Source: a virus (taxonomy: Duplodnaviria > Heunggongvirae > Uroviricota > Caudoviricetes). From it: 19,378 bases of DNA. Every line of letters starts with the position of its first letter. Position 1 is the first letter of the stretch. The notes beneath the pieces were generated by a model. It was given only the letters and a program-made list of their open reading frames with translations. It ran no database searches and was not told the DNA's origin. Both the position numbers and the translations under genes were made by a program. This document shows positions 4,748 to 14,580 of the stretch, one piece after another. Location: IMG/VR virus record IMGVR_UViG_3300029337_000248, positions 1-19,378 of that record; one strand, written 5' to 3'.

Positions 4748-5448
4748 GCGTCGTATCCCCCCTGATCGCTGTAGTTACTCCTGGCTTTTGCCTTCAACCT
4801 GCGTTCACGTTCATCAAGCTGGCGGGCCACCTCCCGCGCAATATCCTGCGCACTTTGTCCTGGCTGCGTCTGGATGATGATCTGCGTCGGTGCCTCAATC
4901 CTGTAAACGGGCGGCACAGTGGCTGCGCGACTCACAATTGCTTCTCCACCTTTCGCGGGAAGTGCCAAAGGGTGCAACGGTGGAAGCTCTGCTGGTGCGG
5001 CAGCAACGCCCATCATTCCGGCAACAACGGCAGCCAGTGCAGCTGTATTTCTCCGGCTAGTCACATTTGCCGGGCCGTTAACAATTTCCGGCCCGTTTTC
5101 ACCGACGATGCCAAACTGCCCGCGCGGGATATACCCGCCGCTGTCATACATCCCCGCAAAGCCATATCCCCATGATGGAAAACCACCCGATGGCATCATC
5201 ACTTTACCGTCTGCATTCACCGTCGCAGGTTGCTGACGCGTCACGCTTTCCGGCAGTTTTGCCTTTGCGGCCTCTTTACTGACAATGCCGAGCTTCTCCA
5301 GCAACCAGGAAACGCCGGATTTCAGGGAGTCCAGCGGATGCATGACCATATTCAGCCCTTCCGCCAGTGCCTCCCCGAATCTCCGCCCCATTGCCGCTGC
5401 ACTCTGCAGTTCGGCAGAGGTCGACTTAACGGGCGTCAACCGTAACAA
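4744..5448 (-). pseudogene. T: Tail tape-measure protein T, C-terminal fragment only (5' part deleted)
   Basis: 234 aa ORF directly upstream of U in the T-U-D order; P2 gpT is ~815 aa from memory, and the reading frame runs straight into the terminase fragment on the opposite strand with no E/E' or other tail genes upstream. Confidence 0.7.
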
Positions 5449-6865
5449 AGGCCCGCGCCGTCAGCCGGAAAAGAACGTTTTCACCGATGAACAGATTGAG
5501 AAGCTGGAAGAAATCTTCCATTCCTCCATGTTCAACTACCAGCGCCACTGGTGGGAAGCCGGAAAAACCAACCGCATCCGCAACCTGCTGAAGTCACGCC
5601 AGATCGGCGCGACCTTCTATTTTGCCCGTGAAGCCCTGATTGACGCCCTGCTAACCGGGCGTAACCAGATTTTCCTTTCCGCCAGCAAGGCTCAGGCCCA
5701 CGTCTTTAAGCAGTACATCATCGACTTCGCCAAAGAAGTGGAGGTGGAGCTGAAAGGCGATCCGATGGTGCTTCCTAACGGGGCCACGCTTTACTTCCTC
5801 GGCACCAATGCCCGCACTGCCCAGAGTTATCACGGCAACCTGTATCTGGATGAATATTTCTGGATACCGAAATTCCAGGAGCTGCGCAAAGTGGCTTCCG
5901 GTATGGCTATTCACAAGAAATGGCGACAAACCTATTTTTCCACGCCATCCAGCCTGACTCATAGTGCTTATCCGTTCTGGTCCGGTGCGCTGTTCAACCG
6001 TGGGCGCAACAAAGCCGATAAGGTGGACATCGACCTGTCCCACAGCAATCTGGCCCCCGGCCAGCTGTGCGCCGACGGGCAATACCGCCAGATAGTCACC
6101 GTGGAAGATGCGGTGCGCGGCGGCTGTAACCTGTTCGACCTTGACCAGTTGCGCATGGAGTACAGCCCGGACGAATACCAGAACCTGCTGATGTGCGAGT
6201 TTGTGGACGATCTCGCGTCCGTGTTTCCGCTCAGCGAGCTGCAGGCGTGCATGGTGGACAGTTGGGAAGTCTGGACCGACTTTCATGCTCTGGCCCTGCG
6301 CCCATTTGGCTGGCGCGAAGTGTGGATCGGTTATGACCCGGCAAAAGGTACGCAGAACGGCGACAGCGCCGGATGCGTGGTGGTGGCACCGCCAGCCGTG
6401 CCAGGCGGTAAGTTTCGCATTCTCGAGCGTCACCAGTGGCGCGGGATGGACTTCCGTGCCCAGGCGGACGCAATCAAAAAACTGACCGAGCAGTACAACG
6501 TGACCTACATCGGCATCGACTCAACCGGCGTTGGTCACGGGGTTTACGAGAACGTGAAAGCGTTCTTTCCTGCCGTCCGGGAGTTTGTCTACAACCCCAA
6601 CGTTAAAAACGCCCTGGTACTCAAGGCCTACGACATTATCAGCCACCGCCGTCTGGAGTTTGACGCCGGACACACCGACATAGCGCAGTCCTTTATGGCA
6701 ATCCGTCGCTCCACCACCGCCAGTGGCAACCGCCCGACCTATGAAGCCAGCCGCAGCGAAGAAGCCAGCCACGCCGATCTGGCATGGGCAACGATGCACG
6801 CACTGTTTAACGAACCGCTGCAGGGCGAATCCGCCAATACCAGCAATATTGTGGAGATTTTTTGA
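5449..6865 (+). pseudogene. P: Terminase large (ATPase/nuclease) subunit P, N-terminally truncated
   Basis: ORF 5285-6865 translates to a terminase-like protein (C-terminal nuclease-type segment ...YIGIDSTGVGHG...) and is followed by portal Q with a 4-nt overlap. Its first ~55 codons overlap the T fragment on the other strand, so the homologous part starts near 5450-5475, well short of the ~590 aa I recall for P2 gpP. Boundary is approximate. Confidence 0.7.
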
Positions 6866-7890
6866 TGGGAAAGAGTAAGAAAAACCGCGCAGCGGCGATG
6901 AATCAGATCCAGCATAAAAGCCAGACTTCAGCCGAAGCATTCAGCTTCGGCGATCCCGTTCCTGTTCTGGACCGTCGCGAACTGCTGGACTATGTGGAAT
7001 GCGTACAGATGGACCGCTGGTATGAGCCGCCTGTGAGTTTCGACGGCCTGGCGCGAACATTCCGCGCCGCCGTACACCACAGCTCACCGATTGCAGTAAA
7101 GTGCAACATTCTGACCAGCACCTATATCCCTCACCCACTGCTCAGCCAGCAGGCTTTTTCACGTTTTGTGCAGGACTATCTGGTATTTGGTAACGCCTAC
7201 CTGGAGAAACGCACGAACCGCTTCGGTGAAGTTATCGCCCTTGAACCTGCGCTGGCAAAATACACCCGACGCGGGTTAGACCTGGATACCTACTGGTTTG
7301 TGCAATACGGCATGACTACGCAGCCGTATCAGTTCACGAAAGGCAGCATCTTTCATCTGATGGAACCGGATATCAACCAGGAGATCTACGGCCTGCCCGG
7401 TTATCTTTCTGCCATTCCGTCAGCCCTGCTCAACGAGTCCGCCACGTTGTTCCGCCGTAAGTATTACATCAACGGCAGCCATGCAGGCTTCATCATGTAC
7501 ATGACCGATGCCGCGCAGAATCAGGAGGATGTGAACAACCTCCGCAACGCGATGAAAAGCGCCAAAGGTCCAGGCAACTTCCGCAACCTGTTTATGTACT
7601 CACCTAACGGCAAAAAAGACGGGCTTCAGATCATCCCATTGTCAGAAGTCGCGGCGAAGGATGAATTTCTTAACATCAAGAACGTGAGTCGGGATGACAT
7701 GATGGCAGCGCACCGCGTGCCGCCGCAAATGATGGGGATTATGCCGAATAATGTTGGGGGGTTTGGGGATGTGGAGAAAGCAAGTAAAGTGTTTGTACGA
7801 AACGAACTTATACCATTACAAAAACGCTTAGGAGAGATAAATGAATGGCTTGATAAAAAAATAATAGAATTTGAAATATATTCATTCTGA
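6862..7890 (+). CDS. Q: Portal (capsid vertex) protein Q
   Basis: 342 aa ORF immediately downstream of P with overlapping stop/start, matching the P-then-Q order and ~344 aa size of P2 gpQ. Confidence 0.85.
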   Translation: MMGKSKKNRAAAMNQIQHKSQTSAEAFSFGDPVPVLDRRELLDYVECVQMDRWYEPPVSFDGLARTFRAAVHHSSPIAVKCNILTSTYIPHPLLSQQAFSRFVQDYLVFGNAYLEKRTNRFGEVIALEPALAKYTRRGLDLDTYWFVQYGMTTQPYQFTKGSIFHLMEPDINQEIYGLPGYLSAIPSALLNESATLFRRKYYINGSHAGFIMYMTDAAQNQEDVNNLRNAMKSAKGPGNFRNLFMYSPNGKKDGLQIIPLSEVAAKDEFLNIKNVSRDDMMAAHRVPPQMMGIMPNNVGGFGDVEKASKVFVRNELIPLQKRLGEINEWLDKKIIEFEIYSF

Positions 7891-7974: not shown

Positions 7975-8472
7975 TCACTTTAAGAATTTTTTCTGATAAG
8001 ACTCATCAATTAGAGATTTAATTATTTTCGCCCTTTTTGACACTAATACACTAATTCTTGTCCTTTGACTTTTATCATACTCCTGTGCTTTTTCAATATT
8101 AGATGTAGCATCTTTGAATAAATCAGCAATCAAAGGTTTATAGTCACCTTCGATATTAATGCGTTGTTTTAGATGATTCAACCACCGCTCGGTCTCCGCA
8201 AGAAGTGCTGTTATCTCATTTTGAAATGACATTGCATCAATTTCTTTTGAATCTCCCGGTATCCAAAACTTTCTTGATGCAGATTCAATTTCCTTTAAAT
8301 TATCTGAAACATTTTTTACAATTGCCCATGTTTCACTCCTCTTTTGCAACGCACGGGAGTTTCTATAAACAAAAACCCAACCAATCAAGGCTGTTAGAAT
8401 TGCAATCACACCTGAACTAGCAAGGTATTGTAATAACCGCAGATAAACCGGAAGTTCATCCATGAACATCAC
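7975..8472 (-). CDS. Single-pass membrane protein of unknown function (candidate effector), third gene of the cargo operon
   Basis: 165 aa ORF; one predicted transmembrane helix near the N-terminus (LLQYLASSGVIAILTALIGWVFVY), then a charged, likely helical domain; start overlaps the stop of the upstream gene by 4 nt; AT-rich codon usage. Confidence 0.75.
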   Translation of the reverse strand: MMFMDELPVYLRLLQYLASSGVIAILTALIGWVFVYRNSRALQKRSETWAIVKNVSDNLKEIESASRKFWIPGDSKEIDAMSFQNEITALLAETERWLNHLKQRINIEGDYKPLIADLFKDATSNIEKAQEYDKSQRTRISVLVSKRAKIIKSLIDESYQKKFLK

Positions 8473-8789
8473 TCCTTTTTAGCATCAGAAATATATCCCC
8501 ATATACTATCCTTGAGGAAATCCAAATCAGTAAATATTTTTAATTTTTTCCTAATTATAGCTTTATCTATATTATTTGTTCTATAAAGTCCACCAAACGC
8601 CTCTTCCAAGAATGAAGAACCATAACCCATAGCACCATCAAGGTACACGTGCACCTCATCATAATCTTGGATGGCTTTCAAAAGATACTTTTCACGGAAA
8701 CGTTGTCCATTATCAGGACCATCCTCATCATAGCGGCCATAGGGAACATCTGAAAAATCTTCAGCAACATGTATCTCTTTGATTTTCAT
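8469..8789 (-). CDS. Small acidic protein, candidate STAS-like (anti-sigma-antagonist-like / DUF4325-like) partner, second gene of the cargo operon
   Basis: 106 aa ORF translationally coupled (4-nt overlaps) to both neighbours. Size and a ...LDGAMGYGSSFLEEAF... segment with adjacent serines resemble the phosphorylatable region of STAS/SpoIIAA-like proteins. The family call is by eye and tentative. Confidence 0.7.
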   Translation of the reverse strand: MKIKEIHVAEDFSDVPYGRYDEDGPDNGQRFREKYLLKAIQDYDEVHVYLDGAMGYGSSFLEEAFGGLYRTNNIDKAIIRKKLKIFTDLDFLKDSIWGYISDAKKE

Positions 8790-9853
8790 TCAGCACCTCT
8801 CAAACTTACATTCCATTGAATAAGGGTTCCACCTATGGAGTATGGCAGATCAAATTTATCTTCAACATTATTTTCAGCATCATAAGAATATCGTCCCATT
8901 CCACTAAAAATATGTAACTGCCCCTCAGGGTTATCTACAACATACCTTTTCATATCAGGTAATCCTTTACCATGCTTCTGACTATTCATTCTTGTCTCAC
9001 CATACTGTACAGCCGCGAATATTTTATCAGAATCCGTCTTAGGATTAAATATCTGAGCGATAAATGTGAAAAAGTCTTTTTTAACCAATGTAACTGGGAT
9101 ACCTTCTCCCATATCATACACCATCAAAAATAGTTGTTCTTCGACTTTGTGTGCCAATATCCACCATCTTTTACCAATGTCCTCAATAAATTCAGAGAAC
9201 TGTTCTTCATTTGAATACGCATGTAGACCAACATTGCTAATAGATTCAGTTAAGGCTGCATATAATTTCACACCATCCGAAGCGGAAATCTTACCTTCAT
9301 AAATGGTATCTTTTATATAACGTAGAATATTTTTAATTTTTTGTCTTGCTTCGGCACTTTCATGATCATCTCTAGTTTTGCCTGCAACAGCGGAAACAAT
9401 TTCCATTGAATTAAGCTTATCTGCAGCTATACGCTGAAACCCTGTAATCCCCCAAATACCACATATTTTAAACCAGTTATTTGCCCTGGATGAACCGCAC
9501 GTAGTAATAGAAATTATATTTTTATCTTTTGTTTGCCTTTGTAAAAAGTCAATATGTGCATACAATACGATTACTGCACATGCTTTCAGAGATTTTGTAT
9601 TTCTGAAATCTATTAAAATTTTCTCACCATCATTGATGTAATCTCTGATTAAAGTGATAAACTCTATAAATAGTTTGTAATTTTTAGTATTAAATAAGTC
9701 CAATGACGCAGGCGCGGGTATTCTCACACGAGAGAATACCCGCATGGGCTGTAGCATCCGTCTTCCACCAGAAAGCTTTCTTGACTCCCGCTTCGCAATC
9801 TTCCTTGCTCTGATCAAAGAATGTTCAATTTGTTCTTCAGTTAGCCGCTTCAT
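8786..9853 (-). CDS. GHKL-type (histidine-kinase-like / anti-sigma-kinase-like) ATPase with an unassigned ~190 aa N-terminal domain, first gene of the cargo operon
   Basis: C-terminal half carries Bergerat-fold motifs in order: N-box TESISNVGLHAY (E-x3-N-x3-H-[GA]-Y as in SpoIIAB/RsbW), G1 box YDMGEGIP (DxGxG), G2 box HGKGLPD, G3 GGTLIQW. Start placed at the internal Met (MKRLTEEQ...) because GAGGAAAGG precedes it; the longer ORF reaches 9898. Confidence 0.75.
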   Translation of the reverse strand: MKRLTEEQIEHSLIRARKIAKRESRKLSGGRRMLQPMRVFSRVRIPAPASLDLFNTKNYKLFIEFITLIRDYINDGEKILIDFRNTKSLKACAVIVLYAHIDFLQRQTKDKNIISITTCGSSRANNWFKICGIWGITGFQRIAADKLNSMEIVSAVAGKTRDDHESAEARQKIKNILRYIKDTIYEGKISASDGVKLYAALTESISNVGLHAYSNEEQFSEFIEDIGKRWWILAHKVEEQLFLMVYDMGEGIPVTLVKKDFFTFIAQIFNPKTDSDKIFAAVQYGETRMNSQKHGKGLPDMKRYVVDNPEGQLHIFSGMGRYSYDAENNVEDKFDLPYSIGGTLIQWNVSLRGAE

Positions 9854-10000
9854 ATCCTTTCCTCGATAGTTGTTGAAGCTTATCAGTTCACGCAACAACT
9901 ACAAACATCTACCTGCTATCTTAAAGCAACAATTTGAAAGAACATTGAAAATCATAGTATCTGTTTGTAAACAAACGACTGTTTCTATACCTTGCGCGCG

Positions 10001-10019
10001 CTCGTATCCCCGCCACGCC
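10001..10019 (-). other. cos-like cohesive-end site
   Basis: Minus-strand reading GGCGTGGCGGGGATACGAG; the first 12 nt match the cohesive-end sequence I recall for 186 (GGCGTGGCGGGGAAAGCAT) and P2 (GGCGAGGCGGGGAAAGCAC). Located in the A-to-Q interval where cos is expected. Confidence 0.6.
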
Positions 10020-10050
10020 TGCCCGCTTTATGTAGTAGTTTTCATGCACC

Positions 10051-10151
10051 TGCATGACATGAGCAAAAGCCCGCCAGTTCTGGCATGTCTTAGCCAAACC
10101 GATCCTCAAACGATCATGCGAACCCATGCAGCATAGACATGCATGACATGA
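10051..10151. repeat. Direct repeats of TGCATGACATGA (10051-10062 and 10140-10151) flanking cos, within a CATG-rich cluster
   Basis: Two exact 12-bp copies 89 bp apart, read directly from the sequence; TGGCATGTC also occurs twice (10081-10089 and 10252-10260). Confidence 0.7.
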
Positions 10152-10201
10152 AAATCGGTCAAACCTTGAAACCAGTCATAAATATGAGCCAGCTTAATAC
10201 A

Positions 10202-10387
10202 CACTAAATAGCTGCGTCTAATACTGCTACACCTGCCGTTTACTGACATGTGGCATGTCGCGTAAGGACAACATACTGTAGGCCAGATACAGCAGGATCA
10301 GGCGAAGAAAACGGCCCCACGCCTTACCCAGCAAGGGCCAAGGGCTAACCGAAAGTGGAGCATTATTCCGCGCAGTTATTTAGTGTC
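10202..10387. repeat. ~186 bp segment bounded by 16-bp inverted repeats (ACACTAAATAGCTGCG ... CGCAGTTATTTAGTGT, 15/16 match)
   Basis: Inverted repeat read directly from the sequence; the interior is non-coding, relatively GC-rich and holds a small hairpin (GACATG-tgg-CATGTC). Nature unknown: structured RNA or MITE-like relic. Confidence 0.5.
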
Positions 10388-10492
10388 AGCTCTTTTGAGC
10401 TAAAATCAAGTTTCAACATGAGGGTCTGTGCAGGCTTTCTCATCCCGCTAATTTATACAGCACACCTATATGGCTATGAGTTTGTCATGCCC

Positions 10493-10524
10493 GCTAATCC
10501 TGTTAGGATTAGCCTTGTTTTTTT
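10493..10524 (+). terminator. Terminator-like hairpin immediately upstream of the lipoprotein gene
   Basis: Perfect 9-bp stem GCTAATCCT / AGGATTAGC with loop GTT, followed by CTTGTTTTTTT; ends 17 nt before the ATG at 10542. Confidence 0.5.
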
Positions 10525-10541
10525 ACGATTGGGATAGGGAT

Positions 10542-11348
10542 ATGAAGAAATTAACTGGCGTAATTGCTTTTGCTCTGCTGCTTACTGCTTGTGACAAACC
10601 GAAGATCGATGCATCAAGCGATCAGTCGATGAAAGAGTCCATTCAAAAAGTAAGAGAGTCCTTACCTGCAGATAAAAAAGCTCAGTTTGATGATGCAGTT
10701 AAAGTCGTTGCCTTTAGCCAAATCAACATGAGAGAGCTAATGCAGGCTGGAACGTCTTCTGGGGACGTCTACGAAACAAAAATTAAGTCAGCGTTGGAAG
10801 GTAAAACTGGTGATGAGGTTATAAATTACGCACAAACTATTCGCCTTGAGCGTGAGAAGAGAGAGAAAGAACAGGCTCTGCAAGAAATAAAAGAACTGGA
10901 AGCCAAACAAACCTCTGCAACACAGGCTGCGGAAAAAATGAAAGCCTTCAAGGTCGAACGTTCCCGTTTTTATTTCCAGAAAGAGGATTACGGCAATGAT
11001 CAGCCAATTCTGGATATTAGCGTTGAAAACGGAACAGACAAAGCGGTTGCCAGAGTATTCTTCAAAGGAGTTATTGCCAGCCCAGGAAGAAGCGTCCCTT
11101 GGTTCTCTGACGTCTTCAACTATAAAATTTCTGGAGGTCTGGAACCAGGTGAGAAAGCCAACTGGAAATTAGCCCCTAATAGATACTCTGATTGGGGAAA
11201 ACTTAAAGTTCCGGCTGATGCTATATTTACCGTCACAGTCATTGGCCTTGAAGACGCAGATGGGAAATCGATCTATGGTGACGCCGAGTTTTCAGAACGC
11301 GATGCTGACAGACTGAATCAACTTAGAGATAAGTACCTTTCTAAATAA
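10542..11348 (+). CDS. Lipoprotein of unknown function (~268 aa), candidate superinfection-exclusion or lysogenic-conversion protein
   Basis: Start chosen at MKKLTGVIAFALLLTAC with a lipobox (LLTAC); the track ORF starts upstream at 10470 but that part covers the terminator hairpin. Central lysine/glutamate-rich predicted coiled coil, then a C-terminal globular region. Confidence 0.75.
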   Translation: MKKLTGVIAFALLLTACDKPKIDASSDQSMKESIQKVRESLPADKKAQFDDAVKVVAFSQINMRELMQAGTSSGDVYETKIKSALEGKTGDEVINYAQTIRLEREKREKEQALQEIKELEAKQTSATQAAEKMKAFKVERSRFYFQKEDYGNDQPILDISVENGTDKAVARVFFKGVIASPGRSVPWFSDVFNYKISGGLEPGEKANWKLAPNRYSDWGKLKVPADAIFTVTVIGLEDADGKSIYGDAEFSERDADRLNQLRDKYLSK

Positions 11349-11456
11349 TCAAAATTAAAGCTACTTCAGCATAGTCCCTGAGAATATATATCAGGGACTA
11401 CCAAATCACGGCAGATACCCCTTAGTTAAATAATGCTAAACGCTTAGAAAGAGACC

Positions 11457-11756
11457 ATGAAACGTATAACTTTCTCCTTTACGTTAGTAGCAATCATCAT
11501 AGCCTTAGCTGGATGTGCTTTGCCAGATAAAGACGGCGACTTCGGAGCTTATGTTCATGCCTGTCAGCAATATGCATACGGAAAATCCTATGCCTTTGAG
11601 AATAGAGACTTCGCGTATAAGGTCTGTAAGGACGCGGCGAAACTGTGGAGTGAAGAAGTTCCTGGCTATATCATCAGGCAAATTCAACTACATCCTGAAA
11701 TACCCAGCGAAGAAATTAAATATGCAGCCATGGCCGGCTCTTTGGGTAACAACTAA
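11457..11756 (+). CDS. Small lipoprotein of unknown function (99 aa)
   Basis: Signal peptide with lipobox (IALAGC), mature ~80 aa with 4 Cys; co-directional with the upstream lipoprotein gene. Confidence 0.7.
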   Translation: MKRITFSFTLVAIIIALAGCALPDKDGDFGAYVHACQQYAYGKSYAFENRDFAYKVCKDAAKLWSEEVPGYIIRQIQLHPEIPSEEIKYAAMAGSLGNN

Positions 11757-11770
11757 ATCAACTTATGAGA

Positions 11771-11793
11771 AAGGGGCTTAATGCCCCTTTTCG
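11771..11793. terminator. Bidirectional intrinsic terminator between convergent genes
   Basis: Stem GGGGC / GCCCC with loop TTAAT; flanked by T-rich sequence on the + strand (TTTTCGG) and, more weakly, on the minus strand (TTTCTCAT). Confidence 0.6.
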
Positions 11794-11823
11794 GTTCCCT
11801 TATCAAGTCCTAACGAAACAAGC

Positions 11824-12010
11824 TCAACTGATTACATCCATCGACCTACTGTATTCATGGCTTCGAATTTTCGCCATCAACTCATCAGTCAATTCAGAAA
11901 CCCACTGCAGAGCTAGCCCCTTCTCTTCATCACTACACTCACTAGCCGCTACAAGCTTAAGAAAAAAATCAATGCGCTGGAGCTTCAAAGACTCCAAAAA
12001 ATAGTCCTGC
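11824..12010 (-). CDS. Small hypothetical protein (62 aa) downstream of replication gene A
   Basis: Strong RBS (AGGAGGAAAG) directly before ATG (MQDYFLESLK...); the track ORF extends to 12114 but lacks an RBS at its first Met. Sits where P2 carries orf91/tin/old. Confidence 0.6.
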
Positions 12011-12165
12011 ATCTTTCCTCCTATAACACCATACGCAATACTGTACATATAACCACTGTTTATATTTACAGTATATAATAATCTTACTGATGTAAAACGT
12101 TTTTTTACGTTCATCAGCCTGATATGCCTGGTATTATTAAGAGCACGAATTGTTAACCCGCGTGA

Positions 12166-14580
12166 TTAATACAGGTTCCGCCACTTATCATCTTCCTGCA
12201 AACGCTGGTTCCGATAGAAGATACGCAGGCCTGCTCCTGACGGAATACTGCCACCGCAAAGGAGCAAATCGACCTCTTTCTCGCTGCCATCAAATCCTCT
12301 GGACTTCAGTTCATAGACGAGCTGCTGACGCTGATACTCTGTAATTCGCTGTTTGTAGTCTTTACGCCGTTTCGGTTTAACCAGGCGCAATCTTGCTGCC
12401 AGTTCCCGGCGCTCTTTTTTGCTCATACTGTGCAGGTAATCGTGCAATTCCTTGTCATCCATGCAGGTAATGTCCGTTCTGGTATCCCCATCTGCTGATT
12501 CATCTTTCTCATGTTGGTTCAAATTTTCAGCAAGGGGACAGTTATTGCCACGAGTCCAAGGGGCGCAAGCGCCCTGGTCGGCTGCCGCCTCCTGAACGTC
12601 AACGGCTTTACGAACCATTTTCCACTTCACTGCATGAGTGCAGATCTTGCCCTCTGCAATGGGTGACCAGATGCCATAAATACGAATGCCGTGATCGCCA
12701 TAGGCGGTCGGCTCTTCGTTGATTTCATAAGCGGTTCTGATGAGGTGATATTTACGGGGAACCAGTACGCCGCCCTGTTTCATGATGTAGGTGGCAAAAC
12801 AACCAGCATCAGCAGCAGCCAGAATGGCATCAAGACGCGGGTTATCCAGTACCGGCGCACCTGCTTTTTTGTCACCCTGTTGCCTTGCCGCCTGACCAGC
12901 CAGCAAGCGAAGTTCACGGTAAGCCTGACGCCCCGGAATACCAAAGAAGCGGAATTGCTGAACACGATGCAGAGACGCCCAGGCATTCACGTATTCAGCG
13001 TTATCACGCAGAGATTTACCCGTTTCCTTGCTGATCTCGCCAACCAGACCACGACCGTCAATGTTCTTACTGATATATTTCGCGATGTAGCTTGTCGGCG
13101 TTCCTTTGCGCGGGTTAATCAACTCAGACTTAAAGCGCGGCCCAGTGTTATTGCCCAGCTCCTCGCGGTCTTCACGGATGGCAAACTTACGCAGTAATGC
13201 AGTGATGGCACGGCGGTCTTTTTTGCGCATGAAACACAACAGGTGCCAGTGAACTGTGCCATCATGATGCGGCTCAGCCACCCGCACGCCATACCAGCGC
13301 AACCCGGCTTTGTGCATCGCCTTACGAAATGCAGCAAACATGCCGACCAGATAATCGCTGCTTTGTCTTACCGTCGCGTTTGTCCAGGTCGGGTTTGGTC
13401 TGCCGTTATTTAGCGTGGAATGGAAACGCGACGGACAGGTGATAGTGTAGAAAACGGCGCAGTCACCGCGCATTTCCGCGATAAGCTCCAGACCTTTAAC
13501 ACAGGCCATCATCTCATTGCGGCGATGCGCAGGGTTGCTGCTGCTGGCGTTTACCACATCCTCCATGTCCAGCGTGTCGCCGTCTTCGTTCACCAGTTCA
13601 TGAGAACGGAAAAACTCCAGCGACTTACGGCGCTGCTCACGTTTATGCATCACGGCTTCATAGCTGACATAAGGAGATGCTTTTTTGCTGACCAGGCAAA
13701 CAGCGCGCAACTGCTCTTCCCGCCATTCGCAACGCATCTTCCATAATTTCCGATACCACCAGTCGGCGCACAACATACGCGCCAGCGAACCCGGAATGAG
13801 TTCATAGGGCACGGGTTTGCGGCGGTTTCTTTTCCGACGGAGTTGCTCAAACGCAGGTGGGATGACATCCAGACGCAGGGTTTCCGCTGCCACCTTTTCC
13901 CATGTCTTGCGGATTTCTTCTGGCTTAACGTCATCGGTGGCATACAAATCACCACAAGCTGCATCAAGGCACATACTCATATGCGCAGCTACCAGGGTGG
14001 ACAGGCGTTTCACCTGATCCTGACTCATTTCAGGCAGGATCAGCAGGCCGTCCAGCCCTTCATGGCTTGCCATAAAGCGAAAAGATGCAGATAGCTGACT
14101 GTCGCGTACATGCTCCAGTCGTTCCAGACATGGCTTAATCGTCTCACGTAAATAGCGGGAATAAGCCTTTGGCCTGCCCAGGCTGCTGAAGTATTCAATA
14201 CGTTGCATCAGCGGCTTGCTGATATGGGAAGGCTGGGCGTTGACGTCCGCCAGAATGACCATGTCTGAATTAAAACGCTGCTGCTCATGCGCCAGCTTTG
14301 CCCGGCTAATGAGCTTATCCTGCTCCATTTCGCGCTGGACAGGATCACGTGATTCATTAAAGAAATAACGCTCCCAGACCTGATCACTCAGTGCCTCGCG
14401 GCGCAACTGTTCCTGCTCGTTATCGGCAGCGTACAGAGTGATCAGGTTTGAAAGCGTAGAAACCGGCGCAACTTCCGCCGGGTCCAGATAAGGGTTAATG
14501 GCCTTTTTCGGGCTGTTCCATGAGAATGCTGCGGCAGCCTCGTTAAAGCCGCAGCAGTTGTTCATATCGGCATGACTCAT
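12166..14580 (-). CDS. A: Replication initiation protein A (rolling-circle replication endonuclease, P2 gpA / 186 A family)
   Basis: 804 aa ORF containing the rolling-circle active-site tyrosine motif ([16 protein letters not shown]); position at the end of the early operon matches P2/186. Confidence 0.9.

What the first reader, a model, noticed from the sequence alone, without database searches (positions are those of the whole stretch)
10493..11756. Two lipoprotein genes in the tin/old position, preceded by a terminator-like hairpin
Between cos and replication gene A, where P2 carries the exclusion genes tin and old, this element instead encodes a ~268 aa lipoprotein with a central coiled coil and a 99 aa cysteine-containing lipoprotein, transcribed opposite to the early operon. 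Prophage-encoded envelope lipoproteins are a classic way to achieve superinfection exclusion. A perfect 9-bp-stem hairpin with a U-run sits only 17 nt upstream of the first start codon, which implies either conditional termination/attenuation or that it terminates an upstream small transcript.
Basis: partly seen in the sequence, partly recalled or inferred. Interest (0 to 1): 0.5.

Follow-up and report, generated by a model that had tools for sequence, protein, structure and literature searches.

The report
Two-lipoprotein moron in P2 cargo slot
A degenerate P2/186-like prophage of E. coli carries, where phage P2 keeps its exclusion genes old and tin, a small self-contained cassette for two envelope lipoproteins of unknown function; relatives of the larger one usually sit beside the tape-measure gene of other phages, which makes a block on incoming phage DNA the best guess, still untested.

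Summary
Genes for a 268-aa and a 99-aa lipoprotein lie between cos (10003-10021) and gene A. They are transcribed away from cos, like P2 old-tin, and a perfect 9-bp hairpin plus T-run ends 17 nt before the first ATG.

The 1.68-kb block (10144-11822) is low-GC cargo that replaces the DinI/Tum-like gene of sister prophages. Protein 1 belongs to the DUF6694 family (PF20404, phrog_7468). It has a lipobox, a 4-helix domain, a 45-residue helix and a beta-sandwich. Asp at +2 predicts inner-membrane tethering. Protein 2 is an Enterobacteriaceae-only orphan with a conserved Cys pair and Ala at +2. Neither matches a known defence or exclusion family, and the two genes also occur apart.

New circumstantial support for exclusion: in 53 of 68 other viral contigs the DUF6694 gene lies directly beside the tape-measure gene, in 31 of them immediately upstream of it (where resolved, the HK97 gp15 slot).

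The hairpin is lineage-specific. What is conserved across homologues is TTGTC-16 nt-TGnTAGGAT, so the hairpin's 3' arm is most likely the -10 of the cassette's own promoter rather than an attenuator.

Function remains untested. This is an ordinary kind of element (a moron) carrying an uncharacterised family. Moderate interest.

The parts
10003..10021 (-). cos cohesive-end sequence of the P2/186-like element (GGCGTGGCGGGGATACGAG)
   Evidence: Direct comparison with P2 cosR, including the shared flank AAGCGGGC. It lies in the backbone block 9984-10143 that sister prophages share.
10144..11822 (+). Variable cargo block (moron cassette) that replaces the DinI/Tum-like gene of sister prophages
   Evidence: BLAST boundaries against L003 and L004. 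GC is 41-46% against 51-55% in the backbone. The same block occurs in 20 of 5426 complete E. coli genomes.
10201..10386 (.). About 186-bp insert in the leader with 40-nt imperfect terminal inverted repeats (MITE-like); not part of the conserved cassette
   Evidence: Inverted repeat I1. Absent from the Citrobacter P2-like version. Diverged copies occur elsewhere in E. coli, phage SfII and a ~98-kb E. coli plasmid.
10482..10509 (+). Putative sigma-70 promoter of the cassette: -35 TTGTCA (10482-10487), 16-nt spacer, extended -10 TGtTAGGAT (10501-10509)
   Evidence: Consensus scan. The -35, the -10 and the distance to the ATG (31-33 nt) are conserved in 13 distinct homologous upstream regions down to 52% protein identity; the spacer is 16 nt in 12 of the 13. 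The transcription start is inferred, not measured.
10493..10524 (+). Perfect 9-bp hairpin (10493-10513) plus T-run (10514-10524); overlaps the promoter spacer and the -10 element
   Evidence: The full stem exists only in the P2-type lineage: G.U in L022, a mismatch in L032/33, and the 5' arm lost in L021 and in the tail-cluster homologues.
10542..11348 (+). Gene 1: 268-aa DUF6694-family lipoprotein (signal peptide 1-16, lipid Cys17, Asp18 at +2, 4-helix domain 27-85, long helix 90-133, beta-sandwich 136-246, C-terminal helix 252-265)
11372..11400 (+). Intergenic 10-bp hairpin without a U-run (TAGTCCCTGA-N9-TCAGGGACTA)
   Evidence: The phage-plasmid copy L021 has changes on both sides of the helix yet still folds at -16.1 kcal/mol. 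With no T-run, read-through into gene 2 is likely (inference).
11457..11756 (+). Gene 2: 99-aa lipoprotein (lipobox LAGC, Cys20, Ala21 at +2, invariant Cys36 and Cys57); family restricted to Enterobacteriaceae
   Evidence: phrog_7666 E 1e-64, no Pfam hit. 14 clusters, all Enterobacteriaceae where the source names a taxon. A profile search of 1.84 billion proteins finds no further real relatives. Alignment A2. AF2 confidence is low, pLDDT 63.6.
11770..11793 (.). Terminator-like hairpin AAAGGGGC-ttaat-GCCCCTTT, shared by the cassette (+) and the convergent orf63 transcript (-)
   Evidence: Sequence. It folds at -15.1 kcal/mol and is conserved in L021. Function is inferred.
11824..12012 (-). Backbone 62-aa ORF (phrog_698) convergent with the cassette, preceded by a LexA-box-like site CTGTTTATATTTACAG (12056-12071)
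   Evidence: Backbone homology resumes at 11823. The LexA-box identification rests on the known consensus CTGT-N8-ACAG (own knowledge).

Best explanation
The interval is a self-contained, horizontally mobile moron operon in the cos-proximal cargo slot (the old/tin position) of a P2/186-like prophage remnant inserted next to ybjL.

Transcription most likely starts at the cassette's own sigma-70 promoter (-35 TTGTCA, extended -10 TGTTAGGAT), a few bases into the T-run. It then runs through both genes and stops at the hairpin at 11770-11793. The conspicuous 9-bp hairpin is the promoter spacer pairing with the -10 region. At most it acts additionally as an insulator that stops transcripts arriving from the cos side.

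Both products are exported and lipidated. Protein 1 (DUF6694 family) is predicted to stay on the periplasmic face of the inner membrane, because it has Asp at +2. It would hold a conserved beta-sandwich head on a long helix. Protein 2 is predicted to go to the outer membrane.

The most likely role is prophage-expressed exclusion of other phages at the envelope. Protein 1 would act after adsorption, on genome delivery across the periplasm and inner membrane. Protein 2 would act as an independent small outer-membrane lipoprotein of the Cor/Llp type.

Shown by computation: the anatomy, the family membership, the mobility and the genomic associations. Inferred: promoter use, localisation and the exclusion function.
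For: Moron hallmarks. The block replaces a DinI-like gene between cos and orf63 in sister prophages. Its GC is about 10 points below the backbone. It has its own promoter-like and terminator-like signals.

Mobility. The same two-gene unit, with the same 108-nt spacer, occurs at 74% nucleotide identity in an accessory slot of a Citrobacter plasmid whose neighbouring genes match the Klebsiella phage-plasmids (compare).

Hotspot. The slot is the published P2 defence hotspot between gpA and gpQ (PMC9122126). That paper's supplementary table lists protein 2 (WP_001580534) and the adjacent orf63 product among unnamed 'hypothetical' hotspot genes.

Lipoprotein signals are conserved. Cys17 is present in 55 of 56 homologues and Cys20 in 15 of 15. 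Asp at +2 is found in the enterobacterial homologues except Pectobacterium (Asn).

Protein 1 homologues are recurrent cargo of mobile elements. They occur in 87 IMG/VR contigs. They also occur among toxin-antitoxin modules in a Salmonella lambdoid prophage and beside DUF4145, SymE and a ThsB-TIR gene in a marine island. Further copies lie next to an integrase, inside a split yjbQ and on IS-flanked plasmid segments.

Tape-measure linkage. In 53 of 68 non-P2 viral loci the gene lies directly beside the tape-measure gene on the same strand, with PHROG confirmation. This includes the chaperone-to-TMP slot that holds the HK97 gp15 exclusion moron (PMC3594210). Isolated phages PHB10 and PseuP_222 also carry it inside the tail-tip cluster.

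Promoter. TTGTC, a 16-nt spacer (12 of 13) and TGnTAGGAT are conserved, 31-33 nt before the ATG, in 13 distinct upstream regions, while the hairpin's 5' arm is not.
Against: There are no experimental data of any kind. No paper mentions DUF6694.

Neither protein matches PADLOC models, Cor, TraT, Bor or YebO.

The DUF6694 family is about 50% identical from E. coli to Methylophaga and Desulfobacula. It also sits in chromosomal places with no phage genes within 8 kb, for example after rplS in Pectobacterium. This fits a conserved envelope ligand and possibly a housekeeping or fitness role better than a fast-evolving phage target.

Linkage to the tape-measure gene could reflect a permissive insertion site rather than function.

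The two genes are separable. Gene 1 occurs alone on plasmids and in most phages. Gene 2 follows unrelated genes in Klebsiella phage-plasmids and Salmonella prophages. Treating them as one system is therefore not justified.

The gene is interrupted by IS1 in two E. coli genomes.

The promoter-like match is not by itself rarer than chance in this AT-rich region: 2 sites found against 5.2 expected.

The +2 sorting rule with Lys at +3 gives only moderate inner-membrane retention (own knowledge).
Confidence: 0.45

Rival explanations
1. The hairpin is a working intrinsic terminator. Either it insulates the cassette from transcription coming across cos, or it is a leader attenuator that gates expression of gene 1 from a promoter further upstream.
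For: The stem is a perfect 9 bp at -11 kcal/mol, with seven U residues two bases after it. Such a repeat is unlikely by chance. The P2-type copies keep at least 7 bp. A 400-nt ORF-free leader lies upstream. An insulator role is compatible with the promoter model, because only transcripts started upstream would contain the whole stem.
Against: The 5' arm is not conserved in the 74%-identical phage-plasmid copy or in the tail-cluster homologues, while the 3' arm is invariant. Only 3 of 9 pairs pair in all 13 sequences, and covariation is not above shuffles (327 of 500 shuffles reach it). In L032/33 the stem drops to -5.5 kcal/mol and the U-run is interrupted. No alternative anti-terminator pairing and no Rfam leader were found. 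A constitutive terminator 17 nt before the ATG with no promoter after it would silence the gene.
Confidence: 0.3
2. The cassette is a lysogenic-conversion unit that changes host envelope properties (serum or complement resistance, stress tolerance, adhesion, protection against colicins or type VI effectors) rather than excluding phages. Lambda Bor and Lom are examples of this kind.
For: Both products are envelope lipoproteins. The DUF6694 family is broadly conserved, also occurs outside recognisable prophages, and has an invariant beta-sandwich surface motif. This suggests a conserved envelope ligand. The nearest folds are carbohydrate- or lipid-binding beta-sandwiches such as the Wzt carbohydrate-binding domain, GH2/GH3 accessory domains and MD-1. 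Morons with such roles are well documented (PMC3594210).
Against: The strong, repeated placement beside tape-measure and tail-tip genes in unrelated phages has no obvious explanation under this view. The same holds for placement in defence/TA neighbourhoods and in the P2 defence hotspot. There is no homology to Bor/Iss, Lom/Ail or TraT.
Confidence: 0.3
3. The two lipoproteins work together as one trans-periplasmic pair. The inner-membrane-tethered protein 1 and the outer-membrane-tethered protein 2 would bridge the envelope, in a spanin-like or SadB-like geometry.
Against: The genes are usually found apart. Most homologues of gene 1 have no partner. Gene 2 follows unrelated genes elsewhere. 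The S56-type prophage already has LysB/LysC spanins in its lysis cassette. No interaction was modelled.
Confidence: 0.12
4. Protein 1 serves the phage's own lytic cycle. Expressed with the tail genes, it might keep progeny from ejecting DNA into debris, or modulate the envelope before lysis. Its presence in the P2 slot would then be incidental.
For: In most phages the gene lies inside the late tail operon in the same orientation. T5 Llp is a precedent for a lipoprotein that shields receptors during infection (bioRxiv 10.64898/2026.03.26.714494).
Against: The tail-cluster copies carry their own promoter motif and a strong terminator directly after the gene. This is the moron signature of expression from the repressed prophage. 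The window's element is a deletion remnant that cannot make virions yet keeps the intact cassette.
Confidence: 0.1

Closest known systems
P2 old-tin lysogenic-conversion unit (P2 defence hotspot between gpA and gpQ)
   Same: It occupies the same slot between cosR and the orf after gene A. It has the same orientation, transcribed away from cos and convergent with the early operon. It has low GC and is replaceable cargo.
   Different: The products are exported lipoproteins, not cytoplasmic nucleases or ATPases. There is no sequence relation to Old or Tin and no PADLOC hit.
HK97 gp15 moron (inner-membrane superinfection-exclusion protein)
   Same: In 31 other loci the homologue of gene 1 lies immediately upstream of the tape-measure gene; in the resolved case the tail assembly chaperone gene is on its other side, as for HK97 gene 15. 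They have their own promoter-like motif (shown for the homologues downstream of the tape-measure gene) and their own terminator. Both are predicted or known to sit at the inner membrane.
   Different: gp15 is a small YebO-like integral membrane protein. This is a 268-aa lipoprotein with a periplasmic beta-sandwich, and it is not homologous. The window's copy is in a P2-type myovirus remnant, not beside a tape-measure gene.
Ltp of Streptococcus thermophilus phage TP-J34
   Same: Ltp is a prophage-encoded lipoprotein that blocks DNA injection and whose target is the tape-measure protein (PMC3952083). This gives a functional model for protein 1.
   Different: Ltp comes from a Gram-positive host, is surface-exposed, is built of helix-turn-helix-like repeats and has an unrelated fold. 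No target is known here.
Cor (phi80/N15/HK022) and Llp (T5) receptor-blocking outer-membrane lipoproteins
   Same: Protein 2 is a small lipoprotein predicted to sit in the outer membrane, with conserved cysteines. It has a narrow host range and is carried as a moron by several phage types, including a site near the tail genes (tail-tip/host-specificity gene J and small neighbours) at the end of a Salmonella lambdoid prophage.
   Different: There is no sequence similarity. The only Cor hit is E 0.054 on the signal peptide of protein 1. Binding to FhuA or any other receptor is unknown.
Pfam DUF6694 / PHROG 7468 and PHROG 7666
   Same: Protein 1 matches PF20404 above threshold and phrog_7468 end to end. 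Protein 2 matches phrog_7666 end to end.
   Different: These families have no assigned function, so membership names the proteins but does not explain them.

Membership tests
Bacterial lipoproteins (signal peptidase II substrates) | Positively charged N-region, hydrophobic core, and lipobox [LVI][ASTVI][GAS]C with an invariant Cys | tested here: met
   Protein 1 reads MKK...LLLTAC, with the Cys conserved in 55 of 56 homologues. Protein 2 reads MKR...IALAGC, with the Cys in 15 of 15. Lipidation itself was not tested.
Pfam DUF6694 (PF20404) | HMM score above the gathering threshold | tested here: met
   79.2 bits against a 24.3-bit cut-off, residues 7-101. RefSeq names the identical protein 'DUF6694 family lipoprotein'.
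Moron (Juhala/Hendrix sense) | Extra DNA between genes that are adjacent in related phages | tested here: met
   10144-11822 is absent from L003 and L004, where a 323-bp DinI-like segment lies between the same flanks.
Moron (Juhala/Hendrix sense) | Base composition different from the surrounding genes | tested here: met
   GC is 0.41-0.46 in the cassette against 0.51-0.55 in gene A and in P/Q.
Moron (Juhala/Hendrix sense) | Own promoter and terminator that allow expression from the repressed prophage | tested here: inconclusive
   A conserved promoter-like motif and terminator-like hairpins are present. No transcript data are available.
P2-hotspot anti-phage defence systems (Rousset et al. 2022) | Located between gpA and gpQ next to cos | tested here: met
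P2-hotspot anti-phage defence systems (Rousset et al. 2022) | Match to a known defence protein model | tested here: not met
   No PADLOC hit for either protein at E <= 0.01.
P2-hotspot anti-phage defence systems (Rousset et al. 2022) | Measured protection against phages | not testable with these tools
   Protein 2 (WP_001580534) is listed only among unnamed 'hypothetical' genes in the paper's supplementary table.
Cor / Llp superinfection-exclusion lipoproteins | Sequence homology to Cor (phrog_1119) | tested here: not met
   The only hit is E 0.054 over residues 1-20 (the signal peptide) of protein 1, and there is none for protein 2. No separate Llp model was identified in the scans, so homology to Llp itself was not tested.
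Cor / Llp superinfection-exclusion lipoproteins | Binds and inactivates an outer-membrane phage receptor (FhuA) | not testable with these tools
   This needs binding or adsorption assays.
HK97 gp15 / YebO-type exclusion proteins | Homology to YebO/gp15 | tested here: not met
   There is no Pfam hit other than DUF6694, and the architecture is different.
HK97 gp15 / YebO-type exclusion proteins | Moron located between the tail assembly chaperone gene and the tape-measure gene | tested here: not met
   Not met for the window copy, which is in the P2 cos slot. In 31 viral loci the homologue lies immediately upstream of the tape-measure gene; the chaperone gene on the other side was confirmed by PHROG in one locus, L083.
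Rho-independent terminator | Stable stem-loop directly followed by a U-tract | tested here: met
   9-bp stem (4 G-C pairs), -11.0 kcal/mol, and U7 starting 4 nt after the stem.
Rho-independent terminator | Pairing maintained in homologous sequences | tested here: not met
   68% of cells are paired, the same as in shuffles. The outer six pairs are broken in 1-9 of the 13 sequences (four of them in 7-9), and there is no covariation signal.
Sigma-70 promoter with extended -10 | -35 and -10 hexamers with 16-18 nt spacing and TG at -15/-14 | tested here: met
   TTGTCA-16-TGtTAGGAT matches 9 of 12 positions plus the TG. The hexamers and the distance to the ATG are conserved in 13 distinct homologous regions, with a 16-nt spacer in 12 of them. 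Activity was not tested.
Two-component spanins (Rz/Rz1, LysB/LysC) | Inner-membrane plus outer-membrane pair encoded in the lysis cassette, the inner component having an N-terminal transmembrane helix | tested here: not met
   The genes lie outside the lysis cassette. The complete S56 relative has separate LysB/LysC. Protein 1 is a lipoprotein, not a type II membrane protein.

The most novel reading that the evidence does not exclude
DUF6694 lipoproteins are a large, unrecognised class of phage-borne periplasmic exclusion factors of Gram-negative bacteria. Tethered to the inner membrane, they would intercept the tape-measure or tail-tip complex, or a conserved envelope partner it needs, and so block genome ejection. 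This would make them a functional counterpart of Ltp and HK97 gp15. Their habitual position beside the tape-measure gene would reflect this. The P2 hotspot would simply have captured one, together with a second, Cor-like outer-membrane lipoprotein.
Probability: 0.3. Interest if true: 0.6.

Novelty: new member of a known kind. Interest (0 to 1): 0.4.

Why it matters
Exclusion at the cell envelope is far less charted than cytoplasmic defence. HMM-based tools such as PADLOC miss it.

If the DUF6694 family blocks genome delivery, two things follow. A common, already-annotated protein of unknown function would gain a role. The many P2-hotspot loci now labelled 'hypothetical' would include a non-nuclease type of defence.

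The habitual position of the gene next to the tape-measure gene gives a concrete, cheap experiment: an efficiency-of-plating (EOP) panel plus escape mutants.

If it is not anti-phage, it is still a widely mobile envelope protein. It is carried by phages, phage-plasmids and IS-flanked plasmid segments in Enterobacteriaceae, and could affect host surface properties.

Tried and rejected
Leads that gave nothing or were rejected:

- The plasmid copies of gene 1 start 5 bp before the hairpin, which looked like a cassette end. The junctions are the ends of IS26 (left) and IS5 (right), identified from their terminal repeats from memory, so the boundary is incidental.
- Rfam at E <= 1 over 9900-12200 gave no hit.
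- Profile searches of the PDB sequences with both alignments gave no hit.
- A profile search of 1.84 billion representative proteins with the protein 2 alignment gave only its own small family plus two spurious repeat proteins.
- The AF2 model of protein 2 was too uncertain (pLDDT 63.6) to use for a fold search.
- Fold searches with protein 1 gave one uncharacterised C. difficile exported protein (5tta) and generic beta-sandwiches. No enzyme fold appeared. The afdb50 library was not available.
- I asked whether the genes upstream of gene 2 elsewhere resemble protein 1. They do not: one is a 139-aa lipoprotein in Klebsiella phage-plasmids and the other a SWIM-like cytoplasmic protein in Salmonella.
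- The palindrome does not recur elsewhere in the window, for example at the CI/early-operon control region. This gives no support for a phage-repressor operator.
- The 292-aa reading from ATG 10470 was rejected.
- A genome-contig scan with the single protein returned only 3 loci, because the patterns were too specific.
Full report
**What the window is.**
Bases 1-2620 are E. coli grxA, ybjM and ybjL. A P2/186-like prophage follows, and it is a deletion remnant. It contains, in order:
- ogr, D and U, then a truncated tape-measure gene fused near 5438 to a truncated terminase gene P;
- portal gene Q (6862-7890);
- a three-gene low-GC block on the - strand (7975-9898);
- cos;
- the finding;
- a 62-aa ORF, replication gene A (12166-14580, PF05840 E 6e-128) and dam;
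- the early operon, CI and int.

No complete E. coli genome holds this exact combination; the best place in any record covers 80% of the window.

**Check of the observation.**
- The hairpin GCTAATCCT-gtt-AGGATTAGC lies at 10493-10513 and is followed by CTTGTTTTTTT. Seventeen bases separate the T-run from the ATG at 10542.
- ORF 1 encodes 268 aa starting MKKLTGVIAFALLLTAC. ORF 2 encodes 99 aa starting MKRITFSFTLVAIIIALAGC.
- cos was verified against P2 cosR. The - strand at 10021-10003 reads GGCGTGGCGGGGATACGAG, next to the shared AAGCGGGC.
- P2's old-tin mRNA starts about 150 bp from cosR and runs opposite to gene A. The two lipoprotein genes have the same position and polarity.

**Limits of the cargo.**
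Comparison with sister prophages at the same attachment site gives three results:
- 9984-10143 is the conserved cos block.
- Backbone homology resumes at 11823.
- 10144-11822 replaces a 323-bp segment that carries a DinI/Tum-like gene in the relatives.

GC is 41-46% in the cargo against 51-55% in the backbone. The whole 2-kb unit occurs in 20 of 5426 complete E. coli genomes (strain S56 at 100%), in each case with replication endonuclease gene A at its right end. In S56 the surrounding element is a full-length P2-like prophage. It also occurs in a dozen IMG/VR P2-like contigs, including Citrobacter at 95%.

The slot is the published P2 defence hotspot between gpA and gpQ (PMC9122126). That paper's supplementary table lists protein 2 (WP_001580534) and the orf63 product (WP_001580533) only among unnamed 'hypothetical' entries.

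**Protein 1.**
- It matches Pfam DUF6694 (E 3.5e-22, residues 7-101) and phrog_7468 end to end. No paper in the library mentions DUF6694.
- There are 354 homologous clusters of the same length. They come from Enterobacterales, Photorhabdus, Pectobacterium, Pseudomonas, Methylophaga, Desulfobacula and marine metagenomes, at 40-79% identity.
- The lipid Cys is present in 55 of 56 aligned homologues. The +2 residue is Asp in the enterobacterial members except Pectobacterium, which has Asn (CDK, CDQ; CNE in Pectobacterium), and Ser in most others. By the E. coli +2 rule (own knowledge) this predicts retention on the inner membrane.
- AlphaFold2 (pLDDT 86.7) gives a four-helix domain (27-85), one long helix (90-133), a beta-sandwich (136-246) and a C-terminal helix.
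- The most conserved residues lie in the sandwich: the ASPGRSVPW and ISGGLEPGE stretches.

**Protein 2.**
- It matches phrog_7666 and no Pfam family.
- The family is tiny and, in every cluster for which a source names a taxon, from Enterobacteriaceae: 14 clusters, and nothing further in a profile search of 1.84 billion proteins.
- The signal peptide varies while the mature part is 71% conserved. Cys20, Cys36 and Cys57 are invariant, and Ala at +2 predicts the outer membrane.
- The structure model is weak, at pLDDT 63.6.

**Are the two genes one system?**
They travel together, with the same 108-nt spacer, in a Citrobacter plasmid and a related 145-kb viral contig at 74% nucleotide identity. The plasmid's neighbouring genes match those of the Klebsiella phage-plasmids below. 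They also occur apart:
- Gene 1 is alone on IS-flanked plasmid segments and in most phages.
- Gene 2 follows an unrelated 139-aa lipoprotein in more than 200 Klebsiella-type phage-plasmids.
- Gene 2 follows a SWIM-like protein at the end of a Salmonella lambdoid prophage.

I therefore treat them as two morons that are co-transcribed here, not as obligate partners.

**Where homologues of gene 1 live.**
A few copies have no phage genes within 8 kb: after rplS in Pectobacterium, and in a cluster of small unannotated genes in Methylophaga. Most are cargo of mobile elements:
- among MazEF, HigBA, YoeB and ParE modules in a Salmonella lambdoid prophage;
- beside DUF4145, SymE and a ThsB-TIR gene in a marine island;
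- next to an integrase in Klebsiella;
- in an insertion that splits yjbQ.

The most telling result comes from 68 IMG/VR loci that are not P2-like. In 53 of them (44 of 59 distinct contexts) the gene lies on the same strand directly beside an ORF of more than 750 aa. Of these 53 ORFs, 52 match tape-measure proteins confirmed with PHROGs. Two arrangements recur:
- tape measure, then lipoprotein, then minor tail M, then L;
- major tail, then chaperone, then lipoprotein, then tape measure.

The second arrangement is the slot of HK97 gene 15. That gene is the original moron, and its inner-membrane product blocks DNA injection (PMC3594210).

Isolated phages show the same habit. Escherichia phage PHB10 has it after the tape-measure gene. 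Pseudomonas phage PseuP_222 has it between K and I, followed by another small lipoprotein. Marinobacter phage AS1 has it next to the integrase. The tail-cluster copies are each followed by a strong canonical terminator.

**The hairpin.**
I aligned 13 distinct upstream regions on the ATG. They came from the window, other P2-type copies, the phage-plasmid copy, PHB10 and the homologues downstream of the tape-measure gene.
- The invariant columns are TTG-C (the -35), TG-TAGGATT (an extended -10) and part of the T-rich stretch. The spacer is 16 nt in 12 of the 13, and the -10 ends 31-33 nt before the ATG.
- The spacer, which supplies the hairpin's 5' arm, is free to vary.
Only the inner three pairs pair in all 13 sequences, the outer six break in up to 9 of 13, and there is no covariation signal.
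- Within the P2-type lineage the stem also erodes: G.U in L022, and a mismatch plus an interrupted T-run in L032/33, where the energy falls from -11.0 to -5.5 kcal/mol.

The best reading is that the 3' arm is the -10 of the cassette's own promoter. Transcripts would then start in the T-run and would not contain the stem.

The perfect palindrome is too long to be chance. It may be a lineage-specific addition that terminates transcripts arriving from the cos side, or a protein-binding site. An attenuator is unlikely: no alternative pairing and no Rfam leader were found.

Downstream, the intergenic hairpin (11372-11400) lacks a U-run. The phage-plasmid copy has changes on both sides of the helix yet still folds at -16.1 kcal/mol. 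The unit ends at a hairpin at 11770-11793, shared with the convergent orf63 transcript.

**Mechanism I commit to.**
This is a prophage-expressed moron operon for two envelope lipoproteins whose likeliest job is exclusion of other phages. Protein 1 would act in the periplasm, at the inner membrane, on genome delivery. Protein 2 would act as a separate small outer-membrane lipoprotein of the Cor/Llp type.
- Shown by computation: the anatomy, conserved signals, mobility, hotspot position and tape-measure linkage.
- Inferred: promoter use, localisation and function.

The main counter-argument is the family's breadth and its strongly conserved head. These point to a conserved envelope ligand and leave a host-fitness role open.

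**Comparison and novelty.**
The unit works like P2 old-tin in layout. It probably works like HK97 gp15, Ltp or Cor in principle. It is a member of none of these families. It is a new, uncharacterised member of a familiar kind of element. Interest is moderate. The linkage to the tape-measure gene is the one observation that turns a 'hypothetical lipoprotein' into a directly testable hypothesis.

Noticed in passing
window 7975-9898 (- strand): A second cargo block lies between portal gene Q and cos, with GC 32-39%. It encodes a 369-aa protein with a weak HATPase_c match (E 0.002; phrog_3364), a 105-aa DUF4325/STAS-like protein (E 3e-12) and a 164-aa protein of unknown function. There is no PADLOC hit. 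Sister prophages carry AIPR, KAP-NTPase or TIGR02391 genes between the portal gene and gene A, so this may be an undescribed defence system.
   Followed up: partly
window 10201-10386: An element of about 186 bp with 40-nt imperfect terminal inverted repeats (78% complementary) sits in the leader of the E. coli-type cassette. It is missing from the Citrobacter P2-like version. Copies at 70-87% identity occur once or twice in 167 of 5426 E. coli genomes, in Shigella phage SfII (beside an acyltransferase moron) and on a ~98-kb E. coli plasmid downstream of a TnpB gene. It has no Rfam match and looks like a small mobile or structured non-coding element.
   Followed up: partly
window 12056-12071, upstream of the - strand ORF 11824-12012: A canonical LexA-box-like site, CTGTTTATATTTACAG, precedes the 62-aa ORF. 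In sister prophages that ORF is followed by a DinI/Tum-like gene, as in the SOS-inducible tum unit of phage 186. Here the lipoprotein cassette has replaced that gene, so this lineage may have lost SOS induction.
   Followed up: no
window ~5285-5454: The prophage is a deletion remnant. The tape-measure gene and the terminase gene P are both truncated and abut near 5438. Relatives with larger or smaller deletions at the same attachment site are common in E. coli.
   Followed up: partly
window 10444-10452 and 10490-10498: The direct repeat CCCGCTAAT occurs twice, 46 bp apart, and the second copy overlaps the hairpin's 5' arm. Only 1 of 200 shuffles gave two copies. In the Citrobacter versions both copies carry the same C-to-A change. 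It may be a protein-binding site or a product of gene conversion.
   Followed up: no
window 10470-10541: Some databases call gene 1 as 292 aa from an upstream ATG, which would put the hairpin inside the coding sequence. Indels in homologous leaders break that frame, so the 268-aa start at 10542 is preferred.
   Followed up: yes
L117 5824-6174 (Pseudomonas phage PseuP_222); L008 9074-9439 (Pectobacterium); L105 8888-9388 (Salmonella prophage): Homologues of gene 1 are several times followed by a second small envelope protein from an unrelated family: a 116-aa lipoprotein, a 121-aa Cys-rich secreted protein, and a zinc-ribbon membrane protein. This could be a variable partner or just clustered morons.
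   Followed up: partly
E. coli genomes ECONIH4 and CAVP776 (hits H37, H38): An IS1 element interrupts the match to the cassette in two complete genomes; in ECONIH4 the DUF6694 gene is annotated in two pieces. The gene is therefore dispensable under at least some conditions.
   Followed up: no
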